The notes: generated by a model from the sequence alone, not told the origin. DNA of 32,599 nucleotides from a virus (IMGVR_UViG_3300017912_001466:1-32599); one strand, 5' to 3'. Positions 615-30,792 are shown, counted from the first letter of the stretch. Program-made: numbers and translations.

Positions 615-734
615 ATGAGCCCAATACCGTTCTTTGTCGGAGCCGTTGCCTTCATCCTGTACGTTGTTCTCTACAGCCTATGGGCGACCCGCTATGAATA
701 CCTCAGCGAGCAAGGCCGGAGGTGGTGGAAGTGA
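615..734 (+). CDS. Small membrane protein (39 aa, MSPIPFFVGAVAFILYVVLYSLWATRYEYLSEQGRRWWK)
   Basis: ATG after GAAGTGA, one hydrophobic helix, TGA overlaps the helicase ATG (TGATG); below the ORF-track cutoff. Confidence 0.6.
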   Translation: MSPIPFFVGAVAFILYVVLYSLWATRYEYLSEQGRRWWK

Positions 735-2032
735 TGGAAGACAACATCTTCGATATGGTCCTTGACTTCACCAAGGGCAACCACTACGTCGATGTCGAGG
801 ACAAGGTACCGATCTTCGTGTGCTCTATCGGCACCCACATCATCAACGCCGCCAACAAGTGCAACTACTGTCCTCACGAGCCCAAGGAAGACGACGAGAC
901 CGCATGGTGCATCCCTGAGTGCATGCTCCGCCACGACAACCCGTCCTTCTACACCCCGATGTCCCACGTGGCCGACACCCGCCTTCACATCCTGATGCGA
1001 GGTGCCAAGGGATCGGGCAAGTCGGCCCTGATTCAGATGTTCCTGAGCACCGGCACTGGCCTTCTGTATTCTCCCGATGCCGAGGATCTCGGCATGGGGT
1101 TCCGGACCGACATCGGCCCCGGCTCCATCACGGAGGCGGGTATGTTCGGTTCCGTGAACGAAGAAGGCCAAGTCACAGGTCGCCCCCTTGCTCGTGAGAT
1201 GTGTGGAGGCTTCCTTGGTTTCGAGGAGTTTTCCTCACTGGTCGATGCCGCCAAGAAGGATCACAGCACCGACATGACCAACCAGATGCTGACCAGCACG
1301 GACAACGGTCGTGTCAAGAAGGTCATGCGTTCTGGACGTGTCACCTACCTGACCCGCTACACCATCTGGGCTGGCACTCAGCCCGGCCGTTTCGAGATGG
1401 AGTCCGGTATGGATCGGCGTTTCTTCATCATCGACATCGAGATGTCCGCCGAGAAGGAGTTGCTCTACAAGCAAGCGCAGGCCAAGCAAGCCTCGATGAC
1501 CGCCGAACAGCGGGCCGAACTCATCTTCTTGGGCGACAGCATCCGTGACTTCTTCACTCAGCGAGCCATGGAGGTCATCGCTGAACCTCCGACCAGTCTC
1601 TGGTTCTCCGAGGAGTTCAACGAGTGGCTCCTGTCCCCGAATGTCCGTGGTCACGAGGCTGACCTGTTCCGACGACTCGGCATCGGCTACGCCGTCATGA
1701 GTGGCGACTGGAAGGGCGGCAGGCCCCTTGAGATCCACATGACCAACCAACTGCGCGACATCCTCGACCGGGCCCTGTCCATGCGCCGCAACGTCATGGA
1801 CGCCGATCTCGACCTCATCCGCACCACGTTCTGGAACACCGTGCTACCACGATCCCAACTGGTCAAGGAGGTGCAACGCATGGTCACCGGCGACTACCAA
1901 GCCGCCAAGCGATGGATCGCTGACAACCTCATGGACCAGCCGTGGTACACTGAGCACAAGCCCCGTACCAATCGCCGTGGTCCGAAGGGCATCGCCTGCT
2001 ACATCGGAGTTTCCCCGGAGGACATCGAATGA
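734..2032 (+). CDS. mcm: MCM-family AAA+ helicase lacking the N-terminal domain
   Basis: HILMRGAKGSGKS (Walker A), GSITEAGMFGSV, GGFLGFEEF (Walker B), TIWAGTQP (sensor 1), MDRRF (Arg finger), C-terminal wHTH-like segment; RBS GGAGGTG before ATG 734. Confidence 0.8.
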   Translation: MEDNIFDMVLDFTKGNHYVDVEDKVPIFVCSIGTHIINAANKCNYCPHEPKEDDETAWCIPECMLRHDNPSFYTPMSHVADTRLHILMRGAKGSGKSALIQMFLSTGTGLLYSPDAEDLGMGFRTDIGPGSITEAGMFGSVNEEGQVTGRPLAREMCGGFLGFEEFSSLVDAAKKDHSTDMTNQMLTSTDNGRVKKVMRSGRVTYLTRYTIWAGTQPGRFEMESGMDRRFFIIDIEMSAEKELLYKQAQAKQASMTAEQRAELIFLGDSIRDFFTQRAMEVIAEPPTSLWFSEEFNEWLLSPNVRGHEADLFRRLGIGYAVMSGDWKGGRPLEIHMTNQLRDILDRALSMRRNVMDADLDLIRTTFWNTVLPRSQLVKEVQRMVTGDYQAAKRWIADNLMDQPWYTEHKPRTNRRGPKGIACYIGVSPEDIE

Positions 2033-2549: not shown

Positions 2550-2671
2550 AGATTCACGGTTGGATCACGCAGTACGTGTGCGATCATTGCGGCTACAAGG
2601 CCAAGACCGAGGCCGCTCTGCGTAGCCACGTCTGGTACTGGCACGAGTTTCTACAGGAGGCTGACACATGA
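2546..2671 (+). CDS. C2H2 zinc-finger protein (41 aa)
   Basis: TTG start after GGAGGTG; YVCDHCGYKAKTEAALRSHVWYWH fits Y-x-C-x2-C-x9-L-x2-H-x4-H; overlaps both neighbours by 4 nt. Confidence 0.75.
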   Translation: MKIHGWITQYVCDHCGYKAKTEAALRSHVWYWHEFLQEADT

Positions 2672-3294
2672 AGTCCCGATGGCTCATCGAGCAACGGCTT
2701 GAAAACGAGGCCGACCCCGTGTTCCGTGCCGCCCTTGAGTGGGTGCTCGTGTCCCCGGAGTGTCCGCTCTGCAATCATCCCGACCGACGCAACATCGAGA
2801 TGAAGATCCACCGTGACGAGATGACGGCTTCGTTCATCGAGTCGAAGCACAGGTGGCCCCTCGGTCTCGTGCAGGAGCACCTCGATCACCACGTTGACTT
2901 CAACCCCGCCGAAGCCATGCAAATCGAGGCTATGCGCGAGGACAGCATCAGCACGTTGAACGTGGCTGAGGACCTCGTGCAACGGCTTGTTTCATGGCTT
3001 GATGAGTTAGAGGTCCGTAAAATCAACGATGGTCTGACCTCCGAGTGGATCGCAGATGCGACCAAGTTGTTGGGTCAGGGTCAAGGCTTCCTGAAGTTGG
3101 TCGGCCAACTCAAGAAGGAGATCGGTGTGGACTCGCAACTCCTGCTCGCTGACCGTAAGGTCGAGCACGTGATGGGCGTCCTTGTGGATGTCCTGCGCCA
3201 TGAGCCCCACTATCTGGACCAGATTCAACTGCAACTTGCCGCCCTCAAGCCACCCAAGCAGGTCGTTGACGCTGACTTTGAGGTGATGAACTGA
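2668..3294 (+). CDS. Hypothetical protein with CxxCxH motif and helical C-terminus (possibly terminase small subunit-like)
   Basis: ECPLCNHPDRRNIE followed by long amphipathic helices; function is a guess. Confidence 0.5.
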   Translation: MKSRWLIEQRLENEADPVFRAALEWVLVSPECPLCNHPDRRNIEMKIHRDEMTASFIESKHRWPLGLVQEHLDHHVDFNPAEAMQIEAMREDSISTLNVAEDLVQRLVSWLDELEVRKINDGLTSEWIADATKLLGQGQGFLKLVGQLKKEIGVDSQLLLADRKVEHVMGVLVDVLRHEPHYLDQIQLQLAALKPPKQVVDADFEVMN

Positions 3295-3557
3295 GGCAGT
3301 GGCGATCCGGTCCCCAACGGTACCTGAACACGCGACCCATCCTGTCGCGCGAGATGCCCATGTTAGCCAAGGCGATGTATGAAGATGGCGTGCGCCTTCT
3401 GCCAGAATTGCGCAACAACGGTTATGTGTGGTATGTTGGTGACTATCAGGTGCACTCGTTTTCGATCCGTGAAGTCTGGGGAATCACCAGAGCCCAGCAG
3501 AAGCGACTCGTCGAGTGGTTGATCGACAACAACAGCGAGGTTATCACATGGGAGTAG
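3291..3557 (+). CDS. Hypothetical protein (start CTG 3291 or ATG 3354)
   Basis: Frame open from 3282; RBS GAGGTGA precedes CTG 3291, which overlaps the upstream stop (CTGA). Confidence 0.55.
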   Translation: MRQWRSGPQRYLNTRPILSREMPMLAKAMYEDGVRLLPELRNNGYVWYVGDYQVHSFSIREVWGITRAQQKRLVEWLIDNNSEVITWE

Positions 3558-4147
3558 TCATCTTCACGGCCGACGACAGCCGCTACCGCATTGGACACTA
3601 CCTCAAGATGTTCGGCACGATGAGCATGGCACCTGTTGCCGCCGACACAACCTACATCCTTTACGATGCACCCTTCGACGAGAAGGATGCGCTCTACTGG
3701 GCTCCCCTGATCCAGCACCGCCTCGTCGTGGTTACCGAGAAGCCTCCCAAGTTGAGCAAGCGTAGTGAAGACTGCGTGATCGTAGATCAGTCCTTCAAGG
3801 CCAACCAGCCTGATCATGGTCGCATGATGAAGGCCGCTATGACATGGCAGGACCGGGACCGGGCGCTCACAGCCATGGAGCACGTCCCCCTACCTCTTGC
3901 CAACGCTTTCATCCGTGCCAACAACACCGACATCGACATGGGTCGCCTCCTTGCGGCGATCCGCTTCACACTCCACGACGACTATGCCCGAGCCGCCATG
4001 GCATACGGGCACAAGCCGAACGGGTTCTCGTGGCCCAAGCGTAGCCGGAACAAGGACTATATCCAGCATCCAGACCTACGTAAATCAGACAACTACCACG
4101 AGTACCTTCTCGTGGAACCAGATAAGGAAGTGACAGAATGGATATGA
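3548..4147 (+). CDS. Putative degenerate clamp-loader large subunit
   Basis: alpha/beta N-part without Walker A (TTYILYD, RLVVVTE), helical collar-like part (VPLPLANAFIRANN), C-terminal VTEWI; near the RFC small subunit. Confidence 0.4.
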   Translation: MGVVIFTADDSRYRIGHYLKMFGTMSMAPVAADTTYILYDAPFDEKDALYWAPLIQHRLVVVTEKPPKLSKRSEDCVIVDQSFKANQPDHGRMMKAAMTWQDRDRALTAMEHVPLPLANAFIRANNTDIDMGRLLAAIRFTLHDDYARAAMAYGHKPNGFSWPKRSRNKDYIQHPDLRKSDNYHEYLLVEPDKEVTEWI

Positions 4148-4512
4148 ATACAGTGTTTGTGTACGGCACCCTCAAGCGAGGGCAGTCCCGCAACAACGTG
4201 ATGATGGGTGGCGAATACTTGGGCAAGGGCAAGACAGACAACATGTTTGCTCTTGTGGATCTTGGTCCTTTCCCGGCACTCTGCTACGGGCACGGACCCG
4301 CACGTGGCGAGGTCTACAATGTCAGCGACGACACCCTGCGCCGACTCGATATCATCGAGGGCGTACCTCACCTCTACGAGCGCGACAAGATCAACATCAC
4401 GCTGGAGAGCGGTGAGACGATCTCCTGCTGGACGTACCTGAAGATGGACGTGGACAACACCTACACCATTCAGGAATGGAACGGTCCCTCCAAGCAGGAG
4501 TGGTACTGTTGA
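4144..4512 (+). CDS. Gamma-glutamylcyclotransferase (AIG2-like) family protein
   Basis: VFVYGTLKRG signature, GEVY, LD..EG...LYER. Confidence 0.9.
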   Translation: MNTVFVYGTLKRGQSRNNVMMGGEYLGKGKTDNMFALVDLGPFPALCYGHGPARGEVYNVSDDTLRRLDIIEGVPHLYERDKINITLESGETISCWTYLKMDVDNTYTIQEWNGPSKQEWYC

Positions 4513-4744: not shown

Positions 4745-5158
4745 GTGGGAGCGGCCACCAACAACAACAAGCGGGTCAAGCGAGCAATCGCAGAAGTCCT
4801 CTTCGATCACGGTCCGTGTACTCGTGAAGAGGTCGCGGAGCATCTCTCCAAGATGCGATCTGTCCGGACTCTGCCAAGCCCCAACTCGCTGTCTGCTCTG
4901 CTATCCAAGAACCCACAGGTCGTCTGTGTCGGCGTTGTCAAAACGAGGACGGACACCAACGTGACCACGAAGCACCAGCAGTTTGACATCAATCGTGAGA
5001 TTGTGTGGGATCGTGAGGATCTGATCCACACCCGACCCCCGTCCTTTATGACACCGGCCGAACGTGACAAGGCTCTTGTCTGTCCCTCCTGTGCTCGCAA
5101 GCGGATCATGCCTGCTGGTCAGACGACCTGTCTCGACTGCCTACGTGCCATAGAGTGA
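4745..5158 (+). CDS. wHTH protein with C-terminal Zn ribbon
   Basis: EVLFDHGPCTREEV..SLSALLSKNPQ resembles the 2029/2286 paralogs; CPSC...CLDC. Confidence 0.7.
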   Translation: MGAATNNNKRVKRAIAEVLFDHGPCTREEVAEHLSKMRSVRTLPSPNSLSALLSKNPQVVCVGVVKTRTDTNVTTKHQQFDINREIVWDREDLIHTRPPSFMTPAERDKALVCPSCARKRIMPAGQTTCLDCLRAIE

Positions 5159-5167: not shown

Positions 5168-5189
5168 CTGGCGACACTCAGTGCCCAAT

Positions 5190-6083
5190 ATGATTTGGGC
5201 TACGAAGTATCGACCCACCAGCCTTGACTCCTTTTACGGACAATCCTCCATCAAGAAGGAGATGATGAACATCATCAGGGGTGAGGCCCCCATGCAACAC
5301 TTCATCTTCCACAGTCCCGAACCGGGGACTGGTAAGACCACGATGGCGTACCTCCTCGCTGAGAACCTCGGGTACTCCCTACACAAGTACAACGCATCCT
5401 CCAAGCGACAACGAGGAATCGAGTTCGTCGAGGACGACCTTGCGCCCCGGACTCGCATCGGACAGTGGGAGACGATCTTCTTTCTGGACGAGGCGGACCA
5501 ACTGACACCTGCCGCACAGTCTGCACTCAAGGGCGTCATCGAAGATGCCCAAGGCTACTTCATCCTGACCTGCAATGACTTGTCCAAGGTGAGCCCGTGG
5601 CTCCAGTCCCGGTGCACTGTCCGCCGCTTCATGCCTGTCGGCAACGACTTCGCTGGGATCCGCCTCAGCGAGATCGCTCAGTCCGAGGGCATCGACATCA
5701 GCGATGAACATCTTGCCGAGATGGTGCAGGCTCACACCGGCGATCTCCGCAACCAGATCAATGCACTGCAAGCCTACTCGTCCCTCAGCAGTGAAGACCG
5801 TGCCGTCTTCATCGTGAACCTCAAGACACCCGTGCTCGACACTGCTCGCTTCTTGCGCCTGTGTTTCAGGGAGTCGGCAGTCGAAGACGCCGTGCTCATG
5901 CTCGATGAGAATGACCTGCGCCGACAGATCGACGCCATCTTCCGAGATGGTGTTGGGTCCAAGGCATCCCCCTCCGGCAAACTACGTCTCGTAGAGGCGT
6001 CAACCCAAGCCCACCGTGATCTGATCTCGGGGGTCGAGGCCCACTATGTCAAGTGGGATTTCGTCCGCAGGCTATGTGGATAA
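5190..6083 (+). CDS. rfcS: Replication factor C small subunit (clamp loader)
   Basis: WATKYRP, PGTGKTT, NAS, LDEAD.LT..AQ.AL, SRC motif, GDLR..IN.LQ. Confidence 0.95.
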   Translation: MIWATKYRPTSLDSFYGQSSIKKEMMNIIRGEAPMQHFIFHSPEPGTGKTTMAYLLAENLGYSLHKYNASSKRQRGIEFVEDDLAPRTRIGQWETIFFLDEADQLTPAAQSALKGVIEDAQGYFILTCNDLSKVSPWLQSRCTVRRFMPVGNDFAGIRLSEIAQSEGIDISDEHLAEMVQAHTGDLRNQINALQAYSSLSSEDRAVFIVNLKTPVLDTARFLRLCFRESAVEDAVLMLDENDLRRQIDAIFRDGVGSKASPSGKLRLVEASTQAHRDLISGVEAHYVKWDFVRRLCG

Positions 6084-6128: not shown

Positions 6129-7328
6129 ATGAATACGACAGATATGATGGAACGCATTGCCAAGAACGTCGGTGTCAGCATCGAAGCCCTACAGGCCAAG
6201 ATGAATGCTGTGCTGGCGGATAACCAAGCCACTTGGGAGGCCCAAGGTAAGGATGCAAAGACCTGTGAGGTCAACGCACTCCGCATCGCCGGTCGCCAAC
6301 TCAAGTCAGAAGCAGACAAGTTGTCCCGCTCAGGTGCAACGCTCTACGAAGGTATGTTCATTTACGTGCCACGACCCAAGGACTGGGCTGACATGGCTTA
6401 CAAGAAGGCCGCTACTACTGTGTCCTCTGCACCCGACACTGTGATCGAGCAGATGGTCGAGTCAGGTAAGATCACTCTCTACCTCGACAACAACGACGGC
6501 ACGTTCACCAAGCGGTACAACCCCAGCCTCGCACAGAAGGCTGACTTCTCCCCCGGCACTGCCGAGGTCGAGTTGAGTGCTCTGCCCAAGGACACCTACG
6601 ATGCAGGTATGGGTATGCACTTCCACTTGATCTGGGACTCGGCCAACCCCAAGTACCCCAGCGGCGACGCCAACTGGAAGTACGGTAAGGCACGACCCCT
6701 CAACGAGCCGGAGCGCACCTGTTTGTTCCTCGGCCGCAAGCGTGGTGACACTGAGGTCACGGCCTTCTCGTTCCGACTCAGCGGCTCTCTGGCCAACGAG
6801 CAGTTCCCCACCTTCGTCACCGGCACCATCGCCATGAAGCCTGCACGCAACGGCGACGTTGCTTACGGCAAGGCTGGTGTAACGGCGTTCTCCCGTGACG
6901 ACTCCGTGCAGTCGATCTTCAGCGCACCGCCTCAGCAACTCGTTGGCGATCACCTCAAGTTGCTCTCTGGTCTCTCCGAGGTCGAGGGCTTCATGGCTAC
7001 GCTCGATGACAAGACCAAGTGGGATGCCAAGGTCGCCATCAACACCGAGGTCGTTCACATCGACCCACGTGACAACGGTGGCTTCATCGTCACGGTCGGT
7101 GACCTCGACATCTTCTCGTCGGCTCCGACTGTGGATGTCTATGTCCCTGCCGAGCAGGAGGATCTCGTGACCTTCGGTGTCGGCTCCAACCTACTCATCG
7201 TCGGTGCCCCATGGATGTCTCGTGAGGGTGAAGCCCGTCTCTCCGTTGCGGGCTTCTTCTGCCCTGACGAGCCAATGCCCGTCGTGTCGGAATCGTCGTC
7301 CGACGAGGGTGACATGGGGTGGGACTGA
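6129..7328 (+). CDS. Putative ssDNA-binding protein (RPA-like, OB folds)
   Basis: N-terminal helical domain, beta-rich body, acidic tail SSSDEGDMGWD; between RFC and the ATPase; strong expression signals. Confidence 0.6.
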   Translation: MNTTDMMERIAKNVGVSIEALQAKMNAVLADNQATWEAQGKDAKTCEVNALRIAGRQLKSEADKLSRSGATLYEGMFIYVPRPKDWADMAYKKAATTVSSAPDTVIEQMVESGKITLYLDNNDGTFTKRYNPSLAQKADFSPGTAEVELSALPKDTYDAGMGMHFHLIWDSANPKYPSGDANWKYGKARPLNEPERTCLFLGRKRGDTEVTAFSFRLSGSLANEQFPTFVTGTIAMKPARNGDVAYGKAGVTAFSRDDSVQSIFSAPPQQLVGDHLKLLSGLSEVEGFMATLDDKTKWDAKVAINTEVVHIDPRDNGGFIVTVGDLDIFSSAPTVDVYVPAEQEDLVTFGVGSNLLIVGAPWMSREGEARLSVAGFFCPDEPMPVVSESSSDEGDMGWD

Positions 7329-8257
7329 TGGGGTGGGGGGCACAGCCCTCCGCTCCGTCGGCCTCCGCTGAGACGGCTACCTACGGCGTGGACTACTACC
7401 GGGACTTGTTCAACCGCAAGCGGGAGAACCTCGCCCCGATCCGCATGGCGCTCGTTGGCAAGGAGAACACCGGCAAGACCGGCTCCGCCATCGACATCGC
7501 CTTGGCACACACTGACCTTCCCATCTGTGTCATCGACATCGACGGGTCTGCTGACAACACCGTGGACTACCTGCGTAGCACGGGCAAGGGTGACAATATC
7601 TTCGTGGTCCCCCTCATCGACGAAGCAGACGAGTCCATCTGGAACGAGGACAACACCACCAACTGGTTGGCGTTGCTTGACAAACTCCAGTGGTTCTTGC
7701 CTATCCTCAGCGAGAAGGCGGCTTCCGGTGAGTTGGGCGCAGTCGTGCTCGACGGATGTTCGACCCTGCTCAAGTGGTGCGAGTTCGTCATGACCGACTC
7801 CTTGCTTCGCCGTGGCGTCATCAAGGAAGAGGGTGACTCCTTCAACCAGAAGGAGTGGCGTGAGCGCAACCGTCTGTTCAAGGACGTGCTCCAGCGTGTG
7901 ACCAGCCTACCCATCCCTTACGTGTTCTTCACGTTCCACCTCAAGGATCAGAAGCAATACATGGATGTAGGCGACGGTACCAAGGCCCTGATGACCGTGG
8001 GTACTCGACCCGACTGGGTTGACGGTACGCAACGGTTCGTGAGTCAGCAGGTGTTCTTGCGACGATACACACAGAAGGGTGATCGCGCCGCTGGTGTCGA
8101 GGCTGACAAGAGCCTCGGTGCTGATGAGTTCGTCATCCGTGCCGCTATCGAGGAGATGAAGGGGCGCAACATGGAGCACCTCGGCAAGACCTACGACATC
8201 CTCCGTGTCAACTCTGGCAACGTGCACTGGTCGGGCCTACCTCTGAGGTGGGACTGA
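7328..8257 (+). CDS. RecA/RadA-superfamily P-loop ATPase (Sak4/AAA_24-like recombinase)
   Basis: LVGKENTGKT (Walker A), VIDIDG, AVVLDG (Walker B), FFTFH; coupled to the SSB gene. Confidence 0.75.
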   Translation: MGWGAQPSAPSASAETATYGVDYYRDLFNRKRENLAPIRMALVGKENTGKTGSAIDIALAHTDLPICVIDIDGSADNTVDYLRSTGKGDNIFVVPLIDEADESIWNEDNTTNWLALLDKLQWFLPILSEKAASGELGAVVLDGCSTLLKWCEFVMTDSLLRRGVIKEEGDSFNQKEWRERNRLFKDVLQRVTSLPIPYVFFTFHLKDQKQYMDVGDGTKALMTVGTRPDWVDGTQRFVSQQVFLRRYTQKGDRAAGVEADKSLGADEFVIRAAIEEMKGRNMEHLGKTYDILRVNSGNVHWSGLPLRWD

Positions 8258-8454
8258 TGAGTGCGGTTGAGCAACGCGTGATCGGCAAAATCATGTGGCG
8301 TGCTCAGGAGGGCTGGAAGAAGTACGGCACCACCATGGAGCGTCAGGATCTTGACCTGATGCAGTGGATGTTGCACCTGCAAGAAGAGTTGTTGGACGGT
8401 GCTATCTATCTCCAGAGGATTATCGACGACACAATGCTGGTGGAAGAAGAATGA
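8257..8454 (+). CDS. Small all-alpha NTP pyrophosphatase-like (MazG-related) protein
   Basis: G.KKYGTT..R.DL...W..HLQEELLDGAIY with an EExxD metal-binding pattern. Confidence 0.6.
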   Translation: MSAVEQRVIGKIMWRAQEGWKKYGTTMERQDLDLMQWMLHLQEELLDGAIYLQRIIDDTMLVEEE

Positions 8455-9272
8455 AAATCAACCGACTACTATTGGAACACATGCTCGCTATCGTCTGCCG
8501 TGTGCAACACATCAATGCTAAGGCACAGCCGCAGGTCGAGTCCTGCATCATCGAGGCTGGTGACAACATGGCTCGCATCTACTACTTGGTGAAGGACGGC
8601 AAGACCAGTGTCGGACACGTGTCCGCTCCCTGCGAGACGACCGAGGCTGAGAGCATCCCCATCGTGGACATTGAGCGACTGCTTGGTATTCTCAAGTACC
8701 ACGGCAAGACGATCACCATCTTCCACGAAGAGGAATCTGGCAAGGTCCGCATCCGCTCCGGCAAGAAGCGCACCACGATGCTCGGAACCTTTGAGGCGAA
8801 GGCTTACGCCAACTCCCAATCCACCATCAGTGAGTGGAACGCCAAGGCACGCGACCTTACCGGTAGCATCACGGAAGAGAACACATATGTGACACAGAAG
8901 GGGCAGATCATCAACCCGGTGTATCGCTTCACTGTGAACTCCAACGAACTGTACGAGGCACTGCGCTGTGACGGCATCAACGGTCAGAAGTTGAATCTCT
9001 ACAACTTCATCAGCGACGACCACAATGTGCGTGTAAATGTCGGTGACTACCTCAAGGGCAAGACGAGTACGATCCTGTTCCAACACGAGGATGATGACGC
9101 GCCGAGGTTCGACGTGCACTTCAGTGGCGGTCTGGAGAACGTGCTCAAGCACTACAGCGAAGACGTGGACATCGCACTGTTTGACTTCAGTGAGTATGGT
9201 CAGGGCTACCGCATGGTGATGCGCTTCAGCAATCAGGACCTACTGTTTCAGGCGGGTGTGCCCGGTGTCTGA
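8451..9272 (+). CDS. Divergent PCNA-like sliding clamp
   Basis: 273 aa, two repeated alpha/beta halves (VDIERLLGILK; VNSNELYEAL; GLENVLK..SEDVDI); encoded with RFC and PolB. Confidence 0.6.
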   Translation: MKINRLLLEHMLAIVCRVQHINAKAQPQVESCIIEAGDNMARIYYLVKDGKTSVGHVSAPCETTEAESIPIVDIERLLGILKYHGKTITIFHEEESGKVRIRSGKKRTTMLGTFEAKAYANSQSTISEWNAKARDLTGSITEENTYVTQKGQIINPVYRFTVNSNELYEALRCDGINGQKLNLYNFISDDHNVRVNVGDYLKGKTSTILFQHEDDDAPRFDVHFSGGLENVLKHYSEDVDIALFDFSEYGQGYRMVMRFSNQDLLFQAGVPGV

Positions 9273-9886: not shown

Positions 9887-12124
9887 ATGATTGTAACTGA
9901 GCGCAGTGGGCGCAAGATCAGTGTCAGGCGGCGTGACCCCGACACGCTGGAGCGTATCGAAGACACCCTTGAAGCATACCCCTACTTCTTCGTAGAGGCA
10001 GGGCAACATGTCCCCGGCGCAGTGCGCTATGAGGGCGACTACGAGGGTGTCTTCGGTACCGTCTTGCAGAAGGTGTTCTTCCGTACTGAGTACGAGCGTC
10101 GTGACGCTACACGTGGCTATCCCACGTGGGAGAAGACCGTACCCTTCGTCAATCAGGTCCTCAACGACCGCCTCCTTCGTGGCAACGAACCGTTCCCCAA
10201 CTACCGCCACCGCATCTGGTATCTTGATGGTGAGTGGAAGGCGGAGTCTGAGGAGATCACCATGCTCTCTGTGTGGGACAACTACACCGAGCGTATGTTC
10301 ACTTGGGTTCAGCACCCAGAGGTCGAACCGGGAATGGTCCGTAGTATGCCCTGCAAGGACCACCCAGAGGGTTTGACCGAGGTGACCTTCGATACCCCAG
10401 CCATGGCATTCAAGGACGAGAAATCGCTACTCCAGCACTTCGTTCAGCACATGGCCAAACACGATCCCGATATCATCACCGGCTGGTACGTTGTCGATGC
10501 TGACATCTCGACCATCAGTCACCGTATGCGCAGGCTCGGCCTTGATCCCAAGGCGATGAGTCCGTACCGTCAGCACACGTGGAAGTACAGTGTGACTGAC
10601 AAGAAGTGGACTCAGCCGATCCCCGGTCGTCTCTGCATCGACCTCATGGTTGCGTTCAAGAAGTTGTGGACAATCAAGAACGGGCAGTTGGCTGGTCAGA
10701 AGTTGGACGATGTGGCCGAGTTGGTGCTGGGCGAGCGCAAGGTCGAACTCAAGGATGGGCACGACACATACTACTCGGACATCGGGACATACACAGACTA
10801 CAACCGGCAAGACGTGCGCCTGCTCCCACGGCTCGACGAGGCGCTCAACGTCATCAACTACTACACCAGTCTGCAACACCTGATTCAATGCAACATGCAA
10901 ACCACACCGATGGTCACGGCGTGTGCCACCAGTCTGTTCATCCAAGATCCCGACTTCACTCGCCGGATCCCCGACCGACCACAGCACAGCAAGGTGGACT
11001 ACCAAGGCGCTGACGTGCAGGAGCCCGAGCCGGGCATCTACAACAACATGGCGATCATGGACATCAAGGCCATGTACCACAGCAACGTCAACTTGCACAA
11101 CATCTCGTGGGACACGCTCGATGCATCGGGCAAGGACTGCGGCAACGGCGTCTGCTTCTCACAGGACACGCGTGGTCTGCTTGGTCGCACCATGGACAAA
11201 CTCACCGTCCAGCGTAACGAGTACAAGCGCAAGATGCGGGAGGATCCTGACAACAGTGCCAAGTGGGACGCCATGCAGTTTGCTACCAAGTCGATGGTGG
11301 CATCCCTGTACGGTGTCTGTGGTGACAGCAAGTATGGCATGTACCACCCCGACATCGCTTCTGCTATCACGTTCACATCTCGCCAGACCCTGTTTCGTTT
11401 GCGGGACGAGTGCAATGACCGGGGCTACCCGGTTCGATACGGACACACAGACTCCATCTTCTGCGAAGTCCCCTCACCCGAGGAGGGCCTTCGTTTGCTC
11501 GCTGACATCAACAAGTCCATGGCTCCCATCGAGACTGAGTTTGAGAAGTGGTGCGAGTCGATGATCCTCAAGGCCAAGAACCGCTACGCCGGTAAGGTCG
11601 TGTGGACCGATGGCGAGTATCACGAACCTGATTACTACTACAAGGGTCTGGAACTCAAGCAAACACGCATGCCCAAGGCCATGAAGACGACCATGGATCA
11701 GGTGCTACGCAACATCCTCGATGGGACCAGCAAGGACGACACCGATGCCATGCTGACAGACCTGATCGAGCGTGGCAAGTCTGGTGAACTCGGCAACGAC
11801 CTACTACCCAAGGGCAAACTCAGTCAGCCCCTCCATGCCTACAAGTCAGTGGCAGGTGCGGCCGCAGGTGCGGCGTGGGCTTCCCGTGCTCTGGGACGTG
11901 AGTACCAGCCCGGTGAGTCGTTCCTGTACGCAATCGACATGCACGGTGACTTCATCGCCTTCGACAGCGTGGAGGACATCAGGGACATCGCTCACGTGGA
12001 CTGGCCCGAGATGACCATGCGCTTCATCGTCAAGAAGGCGACAGACCTGTACGATTTGGTTGGCTGGTCCCCACAAGAACTGGTCAATGCGCACCGTGGT
12101 CTCGGCCTACTGCAATGGTTATAG
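9887..12124 (+). CDS. polB: Family B DNA polymerase with 3'-5' exonuclease
   Basis: ExoI LDGE, ExoII DPDIITGW, ExoIII YNRQD, motif A DIKAMYHS, motif B K...ASLYG, motif C YGHTDS, KNRYAG, KGLE; ATATAC 21 nt upstream. Confidence 0.95.
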   Translation: MIVTERSGRKISVRRRDPDTLERIEDTLEAYPYFFVEAGQHVPGAVRYEGDYEGVFGTVLQKVFFRTEYERRDATRGYPTWEKTVPFVNQVLNDRLLRGNEPFPNYRHRIWYLDGEWKAESEEITMLSVWDNYTERMFTWVQHPEVEPGMVRSMPCKDHPEGLTEVTFDTPAMAFKDEKSLLQHFVQHMAKHDPDIITGWYVVDADISTISHRMRRLGLDPKAMSPYRQHTWKYSVTDKKWTQPIPGRLCIDLMVAFKKLWTIKNGQLAGQKLDDVAELVLGERKVELKDGHDTYYSDIGTYTDYNRQDVRLLPRLDEALNVINYYTSLQHLIQCNMQTTPMVTACATSLFIQDPDFTRRIPDRPQHSKVDYQGADVQEPEPGIYNNMAIMDIKAMYHSNVNLHNISWDTLDASGKDCGNGVCFSQDTRGLLGRTMDKLTVQRNEYKRKMREDPDNSAKWDAMQFATKSMVASLYGVCGDSKYGMYHPDIASAITFTSRQTLFRLRDECNDRGYPVRYGHTDSIFCEVPSPEEGLRLLADINKSMAPIETEFEKWCESMILKAKNRYAGKVVWTDGEYHEPDYYYKGLELKQTRMPKAMKTTMDQVLRNILDGTSKDDTDAMLTDLIERGKSGELGNDLLPKGKLSQPLHAYKSVAGAAAGAAWASRALGREYQPGESFLYAIDMHGDFIAFDSVEDIRDIAHVDWPEMTMRFIVKKATDLYDLVGWSPQELVNAHRGLGLLQWL

Positions 12125-12893: not shown

Positions 12894-13124
12894 ATGGCTC
12901 GTCAAAATCTTGAGCGGCTCCAGTGGATGTGCGAACAAGCCGGTAAGGTCTCTCCTTCTGAATGGCCTGAAGGTCTGATCGGTGTCGGTCCTGACATGCG
13001 GAGATTCGTTAAAGCGCAAGAAGATGCTCCTGCGCCTGCTCCTAAGAAGACTCGATCACCCAAGAAGAAGGCTGATAAGCAGGCTACAACAAAGGTTGAG
13101 TCTGATGAGTCTACACAAGAATAG
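12894..13124 (+). CDS. Small protein with Pro/Lys-rich tail
   Basis: RBS GGAGTGA; APAPAPKKTRSPKKKADK. Confidence 0.6.
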   Translation: MARQNLERLQWMCEQAGKVSPSEWPEGLIGVGPDMRRFVKAQEDAPAPAPKKTRSPKKKADKQATTKVESDESTQE

Positions 13125-13986
13125 TACCTATAACCCTGCTGAGGCTTTGGCCAAAGGCATTCCCCTACGGGTATCGAAGTCGTCTTTCATCGGCTACGAT
13201 GGCTGTCCCCGCCGCTACTGGTGGGAGAAGGTTGCTGGTCTCAGAGGACCACCCACAGAGCACATGGTCCACGGCACACAGGCGCACGAGACCTTGGAGA
13301 ATCTATACAACTCTGTGATGGAAGCGAAGGAAGTACCAGACATTGAGGGGATCCGTCCTCTGATGACGGGGTACGATCACGAGGCCGTAGACAATCTTGC
13401 ATCCATCGAAGGCGAACGCCTACGACGCTGGGGACCAGAACACTTCATCCCTGTCGAGGCTGAGGTCAAGCACGAGGTCAAGCATCCTCTCTACAACGCC
13501 GTGCTCGTCGGTGCAATCGACGGCGTACTGCGACATCCCGATGGCGGGCTGATCGTGGCCGAGTTGAAGACCGGCAAGGTATCGAAGTTCAAGCACAACA
13601 AGACACGGCGTGAACTATGCTACTACCGATTCATGCTGGAGTTGCTGGGCTACGGCTCTGCGATCTACTTTTACTACATGTACCCCGAGTGCGACAACAT
13701 GTCGCTGTATCAGGAGTTGGAGAGTAAGCGCAACAACGAGGTCTGGTTGGGAGACTTTGGTGGCATGGCTGTGCTGGAGAAGGTCAACAAACGCTCGGTC
13801 ACTGCGATGCACAAGAAACTCAACGCCACCATCGAGGGGCTGTTTGCCCAAGAGTGGCCCATGAAGTGGAACGATTACTTCTGCTCCAACTACTGCGACT
13901 ACCACATGGCTTGTGAGAGTGAGCAGTTGGGTCTTGATCCTGACCCAACACAATCATATACCGGCGACACGGAGGGTTGGGCATGA
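13105..13986 (+). CDS. Cas4/AddB-like PD-(D/E)XK exonuclease with Fe-S cysteines
   Basis: SKSS...CPRRY, GT..H, GAIDG...ELKTG, C-terminal FCSNYCDYHMAC. Confidence 0.85.
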   Translation: MSLHKNSTYNPAEALAKGIPLRVSKSSFIGYDGCPRRYWWEKVAGLRGPPTEHMVHGTQAHETLENLYNSVMEAKEVPDIEGIRPLMTGYDHEAVDNLASIEGERLRRWGPEHFIPVEAEVKHEVKHPLYNAVLVGAIDGVLRHPDGGLIVAELKTGKVSKFKHNKTRRELCYYRFMLELLGYGSAIYFYYMYPECDNMSLYQELESKRNNEVWLGDFGGMAVLEKVNKRSVTAMHKKLNATIEGLFAQEWPMKWNDYFCSNYCDYHMACESEQLGLDPDPTQSYTGDTEGWA

Positions 13987-14138
13987 ACTGTCCTAAGTGC
14001 CATAGCCATGACGTTGCCATCGAGGTGTACTACAACCTCCTCGGGCAAGAAGGTAAAGAACCGGAGCAACTCGACGTTGCCATCTGCAAGACCTGTCATC
14101 ACCGGTGGGACTTCCGTGACACCAACTCTACCTCGTGA
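13983..14138 (+). CDS. TFIIS/TFS-like Zn-ribbon protein (51 aa)
   Basis: MNCPKCHSHDVAIEVYYNLLGQEGKEPEQLDVAICKTCHHRW; ATGA overlap with the nuclease; RBS GGAGG; below the ORF-track cutoff. Confidence 0.65.
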   Translation: MNCPKCHSHDVAIEVYYNLLGQEGKEPEQLDVAICKTCHHRWDFRDTNSTS

Positions 14139-15111
14139 GATTGGTCTCAAGCGGGCGATGTGTGACAAGGCCAACGCTTACATCAAGTACGTCAAGGTCC
14201 TTGGCTCTCGCTCATCTTGCTACACCAGCCTGTACTCTTTCGAGAGGATTGTTGACGGCAAGCCTGACTACGGCACTGCCATCCTCGACCGTGCGTGGTG
14301 GGACTTCGATGCCGGTGACCGTGGTGGTATTGAGCAGGTCAAGCGTGACGTGGCTACACTCATCAATCGCCTGAGTGGTGACATCCGTGTCGTCGCTACG
14401 GGCAGGGGTTTCCACATCCACCAGTTGTTCTCTGAGCCAGTCATCGGACAGGGCTGGCGCATCCCGCTTGAGCACTACCAGCGCCGCAAGGCCCGTGGTC
14501 TCGCCACGCTCGACGGTGTAGGTTTCCCCGAGAAACTCACTCGCATCCCCGACACCTACAACCCCAAGCGGGGACGATGGTGTGTGGTGATCGACGGTCG
14601 GGCCTTTGCTGAGGATCCCGACAACTACCACATCCCAGAGACACCCAAAGGTTCCCATGGACTACACCCCTTTGCGCCGGTCGAACACGGGTTCGACTTC
14701 AAGTCGTGGACCAACGGCTACGAGCCAGAGCAGGAGGACTACACACCCACCGATGTCGTGCTCGACGCCGAGGTCATGGACACACCAGTCCCTCTGATGC
14801 CCTGCTTAGAGAACGCTATCTCAGTGCGCAAGCCCAACCACCACGTGCGTGTCGCACTGGTACAGCACATGGCAGACATGCTACGAGAGCACGCTGACCC
14901 GAGGGACTTGAGCCCAGATCAGCGCAGGCTGATCGAGGACACGATCTACGAGTTCATCAAGCGGCAGGGCTGGTCCAACTTCAACCCCAGCCTGAGTCGT
15001 AAGGGTATTCGCACCAATCTCAACTACCGGAACACACCGACATGCGCTTGGTTCGCTAACCGTGGGATGTGTCCGGGCAAGTGCTGGCGACATGACGGAA
15101 CCACCCCTTGA
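14116..15111 (+). CDS. Archaeo-eukaryotic primase, PriS catalytic domain fused to PriL-type Fe-S C-terminal domain
   Basis: WWDFD, TGRGFH, RIPDTYN; C-terminal MPCL..NHHVR..PTC......GMCPGKC; GTG 14116 follows GGTGG. Confidence 0.85.
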   Translation: MTPTLPREIGLKRAMCDKANAYIKYVKVLGSRSSCYTSLYSFERIVDGKPDYGTAILDRAWWDFDAGDRGGIEQVKRDVATLINRLSGDIRVVATGRGFHIHQLFSEPVIGQGWRIPLEHYQRRKARGLATLDGVGFPEKLTRIPDTYNPKRGRWCVVIDGRAFAEDPDNYHIPETPKGSHGLHPFAPVEHGFDFKSWTNGYEPEQEDYTPTDVVLDAEVMDTPVPLMPCLENAISVRKPNHHVRVALVQHMADMLREHADPRDLSPDQRRLIEDTIYEFIKRQGWSNFNPSLSRKGIRTNLNYRNTPTCAWFANRGMCPGKCWRHDGTTP

Positions 15112-15138: not shown

Positions 15139-15864
15139 ATGCTTGTCATTGATGATCGTGAGAACGACATCCTGAAACATAAAATCCTCGCTCGGATGGG
15201 GGAACTGTCAAAGGTCAAGCGCCTTGCATCCGCAGACTACATCATCGGTGAAGTCGGAATCGAAGCCAAGGAAATCAACGACCTGTACCACAGTGTGCTG
15301 GGGCACGGCCGCAAGCGGACGATTGTCGGACAACTCATGGATCTTGAGCGCAATTTCGAGAGGCCGATGCTTGTCGTCTACGGTAGTCAACTGAAACCGT
15401 TCATCCCCGGCAACCGCAGACCCAACCGCCAAGACTTGGCGCGTGAAATCAGCAAGATGCAACGCATCAATAGGAAGTTCAAAATGGATTTTCCAATTAG
15501 GTTTCCCAAAATTCAATTCATGCAATTGGACACCATGGATGACTTTGTGGAGTTCCTTGTCAACATGCACCAGCAGATGCGCATCCGCCCCGGAACGACG
15601 GTGGCAGAGCCAGAGGAATCCAGCCGAATCAAGAGCAGGAGTGGCGTAGATCCCCGTGTTGCGGCGCTGTCCAGTATCGAAGGTATAACAGACAGAGTTG
15701 CTCACGATCTGCTCACTCACTTCGGCTCCTTGCCCCGCATCCTACGGGCTCGCACAAGTCAGCGTGCACTGATGGAAGTCGGTGGCATCGGCCGTGTCAA
15801 AGCCAAGCGTATCTTGACGCTGAGGGACAGATACCCGGATCAGCCCGACCGTCAGGCCGAGTAG
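15139..15864 (+). CDS. ERCC4/XPF (Hef-like) structure-specific nuclease with HhH motifs
   Basis: VIDDRE, ADYII, IEAKEINDL..S, LSSIEGI, LMEVGGIGRVKA; ATATAA 22 nt upstream. Confidence 0.9.
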   Translation: MLVIDDRENDILKHKILARMGELSKVKRLASADYIIGEVGIEAKEINDLYHSVLGHGRKRTIVGQLMDLERNFERPMLVVYGSQLKPFIPGNRRPNRQDLAREISKMQRINRKFKMDFPIRFPKIQFMQLDTMDDFVEFLVNMHQQMRIRPGTTVAEPEESSRIKSRSGVDPRVAALSSIEGITDRVAHDLLTHFGSLPRILRARTSQRALMEVGGIGRVKAKRILTLRDRYPDQPDRQAE

Positions 15865-30338: not shown

Positions 30339-30620
30339 TCACATCACCCCCATCATTCCGACGATAGCCGCAACCATCGTTGATCCAATACCCATCATCC
30401 ACTTGACGATGGACTTGCCGATCCCGTTAATCATCTCTTGAGTAGCATTCTGGTTGTGAGCCAGTGCCTCAACAGATTGTGACAGGCCGCTCATCTGCTC
30501 CTCTGCACGGACTTGGGACTCGACCAACTTACTGAGCATCTCATCGTGCTTGTCGAGCCTGCGCTCGATGCTATCGAGCCGGTGATTCTGAACAGCGTCA
30601 GCACTATTCTTCGTCGTCAA
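30339..30620 (-). CDS. Coiled-coil protein with C-terminal membrane anchor (possible lysis/holin-like)
   Basis: RLDSIERRLDKHD heptads then KWMMGIGSTMVAAIVG; TTG start after GGTGA. Confidence 0.6.
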   Translation of the reverse strand: MTTKNSADAVQNHRLDSIERRLDKHDEMLSKLVESQVRAEEQMSGLSQSVEALAHNQNATQEMINGIGKSIVKWMMGIGSTMVAAIVGMMGVM

Positions 30621-30792
30621 GCATATCACCCACGGTTTCCATAACAATAGAACCGGAGGACTTGATGCTCTCAAGGACCTCATCAAGAGAGACCTTGCCG
30701 TCATCAGCGATCCATTTCTTGTATTCGTTGTAGACAACGTAGGCGAGGAAGCCAAGCACGTTGACGTAGGTGATGATGGTCTCGATCTCCAT
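30604..30792 (-). CDS. Small membrane protein with acidic loop (holin-like candidate)
   Basis: N-terminal hydrophobic helix, then ADDGKVSLDE. Confidence 0.6.
   Translation of the reverse strand: MEIETIITYVNVLGFLAYVVYNEYKKWIADDGKVSLDEVLESIKSSGSIVMETVGDMLDDEE

What the first reader, a model, noticed from the sequence alone, without database searches (positions are those of the whole stretch)
10481..11455. PolB with coordinated substitutions in all three polymerase motifs and ExoII
Seen: motif A DIKAMYHS (consensus DFxSLYPS), motif B KSMVASLYG (KxxxNSxYG), motif C YGHTDS (YGDTDS) and ExoII GWYVVDAD (GxNxxxFD). The two essential Asp residues, the steric-gate Tyr and the motif B Lys remain, so the enzyme looks active rather than decayed. 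Known: the LYP residues and the motif B Asn line the dNTP pocket, and LYP changes are used to engineer analogue-accepting archaeal polymerases. Inference: a naturally remodelled nucleotide pocket with altered selectivity, fidelity or metal use.
Basis: partly seen in the sequence, partly recalled or inferred. Interest (0 to 1): 0.7.

Follow-up and report, generated by a model that had tools for sequence, protein, structure and literature searches.

The report
Ocean-virus DNA polymerase, rewired DNA grip
This family B DNA polymerase, likely the genome-copying enzyme of an uncultured ocean virus of marine archaea, keeps its metal-binding and proofreading residues but has replaced both partners of an Asp-Lys pair that grips new DNA in other such enzymes, which likely makes it a compensated working design rather than a specialist for modified nucleotides.

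Summary
The motifs are exactly as reported, in a 745-aa PolB (9887-12124) within a replisome block that fits group C magroviruses. They are fixed in its clade (120 of 120 homologues) but are nested, not one coordinated set. Motif C Asp->His spans all magrovirus-like PolBs, including ones with canonical motifs A and B. Motif B Asn->Ala recurs in several lineages. Only Pro->His is unique to this clade. In Pfu that Lys is oriented by a salt bridge to the first motif C Asp, and losing it cripples RB69 and Pol epsilon. Among 124 scorable distant representatives, Asp went with Lys in 101 of 104 and His went with Lys in 0 of 20. PolB2 lacks both residues too, but too few origins exist for a significant test. 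A second groove sensor (Pfu Arg613/Asp615) reads Gln592/Arg594. Steric gate, metal ligands and exonuclease carboxylates are intact. No PurZ or thymidylate-synthase-family gene was found in related genomes. Most likely a working replicase for ordinary dNTPs; lowered fidelity is the open rival. The scan reported this lineage twice before on other genomes.

The parts
9887..12124 (+). Family B DNA polymerase (745 aa) with N-terminal, exonuclease, palm, fingers and thumb domains
   Evidence: Pfam and PHROG hits; AlphaFold2 mean pLDDT 93.9; Foldseek TM about 0.8 to KOD, Tgo and E. coli Pol II
10226..10237 (+). ExoI D114-G-E116-W117; catalytic D and E kept; Trp after Glu is shared with the split-PolB clade
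   Evidence: 118 of 120, 2 gaps
10481..10504 (+). ExoII GWYVVDAD: catalytic D206 kept, Asn replaced by Tyr201, Phe replaced by Ala205
   Evidence: D206 and A205 119 of 120; position 201 is Y 77, F 26, A 9, N 7, gap 1
10799..10813 (+). ExoIII Y305-x3-D309, canonical
   Evidence: 120 of 120
11060..11086 (+). Motif A DIKAMYHSN: catalytic D392, steric gate Y397, clade-specific His398 in place of Pro, Asn400
   Evidence: D392, M396, Y397, H398, N400 each 120 of 120; His at this site in only 6 of 139 scorable representatives, all of this clade
11276..11314 (+). Motif B Q464..K468..A472 S473 L Y475 G476: Asn replaced by Ala
   Evidence: 120 of 120; Ala also in 64 of 68 shorter relatives that keep Pro
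11438..11455 (+). Motif C YGHTDS: first Asp replaced by His520; T521 and catalytic D522 kept
   Evidence: 120 of 120; 52 of 52 full-length sister-clade proteins; YAHTDS in split PolB second halves
11537..11545 (+). E551/E553, aligned to the KOD E578/E580 third-metal site
   Evidence: E553 120 of 120, E551 110 of 120; KOD role from PMC5718519; correspondence read from the Pfu alignment
11576..11587 (+).
   Evidence: 120 of 120, 52 of 52; alignment to Pfu; PMC3733885; PMC4333401
11660..11668 (+). Gln592/Arg594 in place of the second minor-groove pair (Pfu Arg613/Asp615); specific to this clade among those compared
   Evidence: Q 120 of 120, R 119 of 120; outgroups R 7 of 8, D 7 of 8; sister clade K/N 51 of 51
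722..2032 (+). P-loop ATPase, probably the MCM-type helicase (label from motif reading, recalled)
   Evidence: Family in 12 of 12 clade genomes; no Pfam or PDB hit
5181..6083 (+). Clamp loader ATPase (RFC-like)
   Evidence: phrog_168 E 6.6e-42; 12 of 12
7319..8257 (+). AAA_24 / Sak4-like ATPase
   Evidence: 11 of 12
8364..9272 (+). Probable sliding clamp (lead only)
   Evidence: 12 of 12; nearest named ESM Atlas cluster is gp45 sliding clamp at 0.92, with recognition below the threshold; no PDB profile hit
12982..13986 (+). PD-(D/E)XK nuclease
   Evidence: PF12705 E 4.4e-16
14008..15111 (+). Probable archaeo-eukaryotic primase (label from motif reading, recalled)
   Evidence: 12 of 12 clade genomes and all 5 sister genomes; no Pfam or PDB hit
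15139..15864 (+). ERCC4 nuclease with HhH
   Evidence: PF02732 E 1.6e-09

Best explanation
This is a family B polymerase, likely the working replicase of a group C magrovirus using ordinary dNTPs, in which both partners of the Asp-Lys pair that grips the primer's minor groove are replaced (His520, Asn565), likely as a compensated neutral pair. SHOWN: the residues, their fixation, their nested distribution, and retention of D392, D522, E551/E553, Y397, R443, K447, Q464, K468, Y475, T521, Y567 and all four exonuclease carboxylates. FROM LITERATURE: the first motif C Asp is not the metal ligand; in Pfu it orients the KKRY Lys, which hydrogen-bonds the n-2 primer base. INFERRED: once one charge is lost the other is released, and His-Asn forms an uncharged hydrogen-bond network that still holds the primer end. 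This swap came first, on the stem of a wide viral clade. Loss of the motif B Asn (beta-phosphate and 3'-OH contact) came separately and more than once. His398, next to the steric gate, arose last and may restore a polar contact where the Asn was lost. Gln592/Arg594 would be a second re-pairing further along the groove. Two-metal chemistry and rNTP exclusion are predicted to be ordinary.
For: Fixation in 120 of 120 with synonymous codon variation. Sister clade with canonical motifs A and B still has His plus Asn, 52 of 52; split PolBs too. Tree (I,(II,III)) with support 99. Among 124 scorable of 150 representatives: D+K 101, H+N 18, H+A 1, H+G 1, D+N 1, D+E 2, H+K 0. His needs 2 changes on the tree, and the lone second case (P0410) has also lost the Lys. 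A PolB2 set lacking the Asp has N 118, T 2, K 0 of 120. Nanobdellota PolBs are D+K in 31 of 31. Salt bridge Asp541-Lys593 stated in PMC3733885; K706A and K967A nearly abolish activity, PMC4333401; PolB2 is active without the first Asp, PMC8764526. His398 occurs only with Ala472 (6 of 6), while Ala also occurs with Pro (8). PolB family in 12 of 12 near-complete relatives, beside clamp loader, primase-like and helicase-like genes. PF00709 0 of 34, PF00303 0 of 21, DpdA 1 of 21 records.
Against: No activity, fidelity or substrate data exist here. Only 2 independent pairs on the tree; the sign test cannot reach significance (p 0.5). Three representatives keep Asp without Lys, so the pairing is not absolute. 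The AU test did not reject a common origin of PolB2 and magrovirus PolBs (p 0.199 and 0.115), although the best tree separates them by starred branches. Losing two groove sensors could well lower fidelity, which this reading treats as largely compensated. Several core genes have no annotation, so an unknown nucleotide pathway is not excluded. Host and group assignment rest on gene content, not on a direct comparison with the published reference contigs.
Confidence: 0.62

Rival explanations
1. A relaxed-fidelity, damage-tolerant replicase: losing both minor-groove sensors and the motif B Asn would let it extend mismatches and lesions, as PolB2 does, which could suit sunlit surface water.
For: Both Pfu groove sensors (K593, R613; PMC3733885) are replaced here. 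PolB2, a mismatch and lesion extender (PMC8764526), also lacks the Asp and has Asn at the Lys site. Leu->Met at the 396 position raises mutation rates in other PolBs (PMC3799440, abstract start). ExoII Asn and Phe are changed. This clade has the longer stem (1.31 against 0.75), and Philosof et al. infer rapid evolution of group C.
Against: Exonuclease carboxylates are intact, unlike PolB2. Met is native at this site in high-fidelity Pol epsilon (PMC1888828, abstract start). The His/Asn pair is shared by 88-96 kb genomes with otherwise canonical motifs A and B. A second, DP1-like exonuclease is in 10 of 12 genomes. Branch length does not measure polymerase error rate.
Confidence: 0.22
2. A specialist for a modified dNTP made by the virus before replication.
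For: His398 and Ala472 lie at pocket positions (PMC5703726, PMC5718519) and are fixed in the clade. A few core genes are unannotated.
Against: PF00709 (PurZ/PurA) 0 of 34 records and PF00303 0 of 21, with controls positive. Pfam scans of two complete clade genomes show only patchy post-replicative enzymes: methylases, Mom, DpdA; DpdA 1 of 21. The steric-gate Tyr is kept. His was not among the nine position-410 residues that improved modified-dATP use in KOD, on an L408A/Y409A background.
Confidence: 0.07
3. Changed metal use: His520 or His398 would serve as a soft-metal ligand, favouring Mn, Co or Zn.
For: [quoted passage not shown]
Against: In KOD the metals are bound by D404, D542, the F405 backbone, E578 and E580; the equivalents D392, D522, E551 and E553 are kept. 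The first Asp points away from the active centre, and its loss tracks the Lys.
Confidence: 0.05
4. A decayed or non-catalytic polymerase kept as a scaffold.
For: Single substitutions at the Lys or first Asp cripple model enzymes.
Against: All catalytic carboxylates are conserved across 47-100% identity. It is the only PolB family found in 12 of 12 genomes. PolB2, once called inactive on like grounds (PMC2527604), proved active.
Confidence: 0.02

Closest known systems
Magrovirus DNA polymerase B: Philosof et al. 2017 (PMC5434244), group C; 'Magro' group of the PolII-like clade in Kazlauskas et al. 2020 (PMC7544198)
   Same: Tailed virus with PolB, clamp loader, primase-like, helicase-like and nuclease genes; relatives 60-74 kb, no ATP-dependent ligase (0 of 15), DP1-like phosphoesterase (10 of 12), GroEL in 4 of 12; sister clades have ligases (6 of 6) and split PolBs; halovirus and T4-like PolBs are the nearest named relatives. 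One sequence with this clade's motif A is in Kazlauskas Table S2.
   Different: The passages read use the protein as a phylogenetic marker and do not discuss these substitutions. The Figure 4 logos, which I could not see, may display them. No biochemistry was found.
Archaeal PolB2 / bacterial G2 (Dpo2)
   Same: Lacks the first motif C Asp; the Bathyarchaeia-like set examined also has Asn at the KKRY Lys (118 of 120), no motif B Asn, and Met before the steric gate.
   Different: PolB2 has His at the Tyr position (HxxxD) and Ile at the Asp position, lacks exonuclease motifs and is a repair extender. This enzyme has His at the Asp position, keeps Tyr518 and all Exo carboxylates, and sits in a replisome block.
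RB69 gp43, Pfu, KOD, Pol epsilon
   Same: Fold (TM about 0.8), catalytic Asp pair, steric gate, finger Arg/Lys residues, proofreading carboxylates.
   Different: About 18-24% identity. The Asp-Lys and Arg-Asp groove pairs, the motif B Asn, the motif A Pro and the ExoII Asn/Phe are replaced.
Engineered LYP variants of KOD and 9N
   Same: Positions 408 and 410 are changed.
   Different: The variants described in the paper read replace Y409 with Ala or Val and inactivate the exonuclease; here Tyr and the exonuclease residues are kept and Pro is replaced by a larger residue.

Membership tests
RNA/DNA-primed family B DNA polymerase | PolB fold with Exo and Pol domains | tested here: met
RNA/DNA-primed family B DNA polymerase | Catalytic Asp in motifs A and C, steric-gate Tyr, motif B Lys, ExoI-III carboxylates | tested here: met
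RNA/DNA-primed family B DNA polymerase | Consensus LYP, motif B Asn, DTD and KKRY (typical; not universal, since PolB2 and piPolB lack the first Asp) | tested here: not met
RNA/DNA-primed family B DNA polymerase | Polymerase and 3'-5' exonuclease activity | not testable with these tools
   needs purified protein
PolII-like clade (Kazlauskas 2020) | ExoII 'GWN' with conserved Trp | tested here: inconclusive
   G199 and W200 kept; Asn in only 7 of 120
Magro PolB group | Groups with halovirus and T4-like PolBs | tested here: met
   support 99 (85, open); best named hits are haloviruses and cyanophages
Magrovirus group C | No ATP-dependent ligase, unlike groups A and B | tested here: met
   0 of 15 clade records, 6 of 6 sister records; the window itself is a fragment
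Magrovirus group C | DP1-like exonuclease in the structural module | tested here: met
   10 of 12 relatives, next to the terminase in the two genomes mapped; outside the window
Magrovirus group C | Replisome block: PolB, clamp, RFC, AEP, MCM, RadA-like ATPase, SSB, nucleases | tested here: inconclusive
   PolB, RFC, AAA_24 and nucleases by profile; clamp is a lead; MCM, AEP and SSB labels rest on motif reading, no profile hit
Magrovirus group C | Placement with the published reference contigs by capsid and PolB trees | not tested
   reference contigs not held under names
Magrovirus group C | Host is Poseidoniales (MG-II) | not testable with these tools
   inferred from PMC5434244
PolB2 | HxxxD motif C with His at the Tyr position; ExoI not conserved, ExoIII missing | tested here: not met
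   Y518, ExoI and ExoIII intact; definitions
Viruses with pre-replicative base replacement | PurZ or thymidylate-synthase-family gene in the genome | tested here: not met
   0 of 34 and 0 of 21 records

The most novel reading that the evidence does not exclude
A natural replicative PolB that has given up both minor-groove Watson-Crick sensors and the beta-phosphate Asn, converging on the translesion extender PolB2: one enzyme that replicates the genome, proofreads, and also extends mismatches and UV lesions, with His398 as a new ligand for the incoming nucleotide.
Probability: 0.22. Interest if true: 0.72.

Novelty: new variant of a known kind. Interest (0 to 1): 0.42.

Why it matters
The KKRY Lys is treated as essential in family B polymerases: the alanine mutant nearly kills RB69 gp43 and is lethal in yeast Pol epsilon. 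A large group of abundant marine viruses appears to replicate without it and without its Asp partner. That offers a natural test of whether the first DTD Asp matters through metal or through the Lys, and the nested clades form a ready series (His/Asn only; plus Ala; plus His398 and Gln/Arg). It may also help explain how PolB2 works without that Asp. The virus group and its PolB are already published and no function has been measured, so interest is moderate.

Tried and rejected
All-or-none coordination of the four motifs: rejected. Sequencing error or decay: rejected. Z-DNA or modified-pyrimidine pathway: no gene found; DpdA, Mom and methylases are patchy. Cellular origin: the two close hits in GTDB genomes (L070, L071) and L072 lie in bacterial MAG contigs, and I read them as mis-binned viral contigs (L071's contig is 61 kb; L072's protein is 100% identical to one on an 88 kb virus record). 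PDB profile searches for the clamp-like, helicase-like and primase-like families found nothing credible. The motif scan for PolB2 in viral contigs gave 6 loci; 2 held the motif in a reading frame and 1 was a PolB. AU tests did not reject one origin for PolB2 and magrovirus PolBs. Contact distances could not be measured because model coordinates were not returned. No Foldseek result against viral structures was obtained. No complex prediction was run.

Full report
OBSERVATION. The window is a 32,599-base virus record. ORF 9887-12124 encodes a 745-aa family B polymerase (PF00136 E 4.4e-30, PF03104 E 1.1e-10, phrog_262 E 1.1e-85). An AlphaFold2 model from a 117-sequence alignment has mean pLDDT 93.9 and matches KOD, Tgo, E. 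coli Pol II and RB69 with TM about 0.8. Of 458 homologues the best 120 were stored. In these, H398, N400, A472, H520 and M396 are each 120 of 120; ExoII A205 is 119 of 120 with one gap; the ExoII Asn position is Y 77, F 26, A 9, N 7. In 109 distinct locus ORFs, both His codons, both Asn codons and all four Ala codons occur at these sites with no amino-acid exception among the scorable ones (104-107 per site). The residues are selected, not errors.

WHAT IS KEPT. D392, D522, T521, Y397, R443, K447, Q464, K468, S473, Y475, G476, Y567 and E553 are 120 of 120; E551 is 110 of 120; ExoI D114/E116 118 of 120 (2 gaps), ExoII D206 119 of 120, ExoIII Y305/D309 120 of 120. In KOD ternary complexes the metals are bound by D404, D542, F405, E578 and E580, and N491 contacts the beta-phosphate and 3'-OH (PMC5718519, passages). 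In RB69 N564 reaches the beta-phosphate through water (PMC3564110, passages). So the metal ligands are kept and one phosphate contact is lost. Within motif A, Ala at 395 is also in the Pfu sequence of 3a2f, and Met at 396 is native to Pol epsilon (PMC1888828, search listing only). Only Pro->His (and Asn400) is distinctive.

THE VIRUS. The PolB lies among a clamp loader, an AAA_24 ATPase, PD-(D/E)XK and ERCC4 nucleases, opposite tape-measure and tail-tube genes. Twelve near-complete relatives (60-74 kb) all carry the PolB family and families matching window ORFs 722-2032, 6129-7328, 8364-9272 and 14008-15111. I read these as MCM, SSB, clamp and primase from recalled motifs and the published gene list; profile searches against PDB for three of them found nothing credible, and the clamp has only an ESM Atlas lead below the recognition threshold. 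Ligase was found in 0 of 15 clade records and 6 of 6 sister records. A DP1-like phosphoesterase is in 10 of 12 and GroEL in 4 of 12. Philosof et al. describe group C magroviruses by these traits: no ligase, a PolD small-subunit homologue in the structural module, GroEL; and split PolBs in group B (PMC5434244, passages). I did not compare with their contigs directly, and the MG-II host is inherited from that paper.

NESTED, NOT ALL AT ONCE. A 29%-identical PolB (L072) has canonical motif A, Asn in motif B, yet YGHTDS. Among its 120 stored relatives (of 218), the 52 longer than 750 aa have His in motif C 52 of 52, Pro in motif A 52 of 52 and Asn in motif B 51 of 52. The 68 shorter ones, mostly first halves of split enzymes, have Pro 68 of 68 and Ala in motif B 64 of 68 (2 gaps, 1 Asn, 1 Ser). 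None of the 120 has the ExoII Asn. Second halves of three split enzymes read YAHTDS. The tree groups the three clades (support 99) as (this clade,(unsplit,split)). In the wider set motif B Ala needs 4 changes; gain and reversal cannot be told apart.

THE MISSED PARTNER. KKRY reads KNRY: N565 is 120 of 120 and 52 of 52, and Asn stands at that site in the three split second halves. By alignment to Pfu, H520 is Asp541 and N565 is Lys593. [quoted passage not shown] RB69 K706A and Pol epsilon K967A almost abolish synthesis, and K967A spores are inviable (PMC4333401, passages). A profile search of 1.84 billion representatives returned 150 best hits; 124 were scorable at both sites and 26 were dropped (fragments, motif C cut or interrupted, or failing the alignment filter, among them P0374, which reads His and Asn). 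Result: D+K 101, H+N 18, H+A 1, H+G 1, D+N 1, D+E 2, H+K 0. On a FastTree of 122 rows with trait columns blanked, His needs 2 changes: one large group of 18, and P0410, which has Ala for the Lys. That gives only 2 independent pairs, both concordant, sign test p 0.5. A PolB2-type protein found by motif led to 120 close relatives (72-94% identical, the best of 6047): motif C has Ile for the Asp in 120 of 120, and the Lys site is Asn 118, Thr 2. This is one narrow slice of PolB2. Thirty-one Nanobdellota PolBs are all D+K. The best tree separates PolB2 from the magrovirus group by starred branches, as Kazlauskas et al. do (PMC7544198, passages and section 16), but AU tests did not reject a joint clade (p 0.199; p 0.115). 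The second groove pair is also changed in this clade: Q592 120 of 120 and R594 119 of 120, where 8 outgroups have Arg 7 and Asp 7, and the sister clade has Lys and Asn 51 of 51.

MECHANISM. Most likely (0.62) a working replicase for ordinary dNTPs whose primer grip has been rebuilt from charged pairs into neutral hydrogen bonds. The salt bridge is from literature, the paired loss is shown, and the His-Asn contact is inferred, since no coordinates were available. His398 occurs only with Ala472 (6 of 6) while Ala also occurs with Pro (8), which fits a late compensation but does not show it. Relaxed fidelity or lesion tolerance (0.22) is the serious rival, because PolB2 enzymes are active mismatch and lesion extenders (PMC8764526, passages). 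A modified-dNTP specialist (0.07) lacks a pathway: PF00709 0 of 34 records, 18 of them at least 90% complete; PF00303 0 of 21; DpdA 1 of 21; Pfam scans of 136 ORFs from two complete clade genomes show methylases, Mom and DpdA, none clade-wide. Some core genes stay unannotated. In a KOD saturation screen at position 410, on an L408A/Y409A background, nine residues helped modified-dATP use and His was not among them (bioRxiv 10.1101/2023.03.20.533374, passages; its supplements are closed).

WHAT IS IN PRINT. 'YGHTDS' anywhere: 0 papers. 'magrovirus' with 'polymerase': 14 papers. Passages read in PMC5434244, PMC11706807, PMC10160649 and PMC7544198 do not discuss these substitutions; I did not read these papers whole. 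A search adding 'active site' and 'substitution' listed only PMC7544198 with the word magrovirus among the 20 shown. That paper's Table S2 holds one sequence with this clade's motif A and two with GHTDS (the file was cut when stored), and its Figure 4 gives motif logos per group, which I could not see. The residues may therefore be displayed there without comment. The library lacks most subscription journals. Also consulted: PMC2527604 (first of two parts); PMC3792054, PMC4142720, PMC5703726 (passages); PMC3799440 (listing only). Two earlier notes of this scan describe the same lineage and the same paired swap on other genomes; my reading was noted before I saw them, and they are not independent evidence.

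VERDICT. Observation confirmed; interpretation partly supported. A new variant of a known kind: a published virus group's PolB with an apparently undiscussed, testable active-site rewiring. Interest 0.42.

Noticed in passing
window 12113-12121 and 3515-4147: The PolB ends in QWL; all 12 clade PolBs from near-complete genomes end in W-[LIV] and the sister-clade ones in WW or WF; ORF 3515-4147 ends in EWI. Possibly a clamp-docking tail; binding not tested.
   Followed up: partly
P0410: A PolB outside the main His group with YGHTDS and Ala at the KKRY Lys site: a probable second origin of the paired loss.
   Followed up: partly
L258 3293-6046, L260, L262: Split PolBs broken between motifs B and C; second halves also replace the KKRY Tyr with Asn.
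   Followed up: partly
L272 4511-5915 and L271 13111-17395 (G003): One clade genome carries DpdA, Mom and three methyltransferases inside the replication block; DpdA in 1 of 21 records.
   Followed up: partly
window 4138-4512; L267 13910-16429: Gamma-glutamyl cyclotransferase in the window; a fused amidoligase-glutamine amidotransferase in 6 of 12 relatives.
   Followed up: no
L268 4226-4795: Pyrimidine-dimer glycosylase-like gene in 10 of 12 clade genomes and 4 of 4 unsplit sister genomes.
   Followed up: no
L070, L071, L072: Magrovirus-like PolBs inside bacterial MAGs labelled Rhodobiaceae, Opitutales and Altibacter; probably mis-binned viral contigs.
   Followed up: partly
window 10235-10237: Trp directly after the ExoI Glu is shared by this clade and the split-PolB clade, many of which also have Ala for the ExoII Phe; it might replace the lost aromatic contact.
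   Followed up: no
window 2668-3294, 4745-5158; L268 5721-6518, 6802-7623: Core genes of the clade (9 to 12 of 12 genomes) with no Pfam or PHROG hit.
   Followed up: partly
window 30339-30755 (-): 138-aa ORF with a weak, below-cut-off match to the XhlA family; likely a coiled-coil or holin-like protein.
   Followed up: no
L277 17546-18583 (G004): A sister-clade genome has an IMPDH/GMP reductase gene just before its PolB.
   Followed up: no
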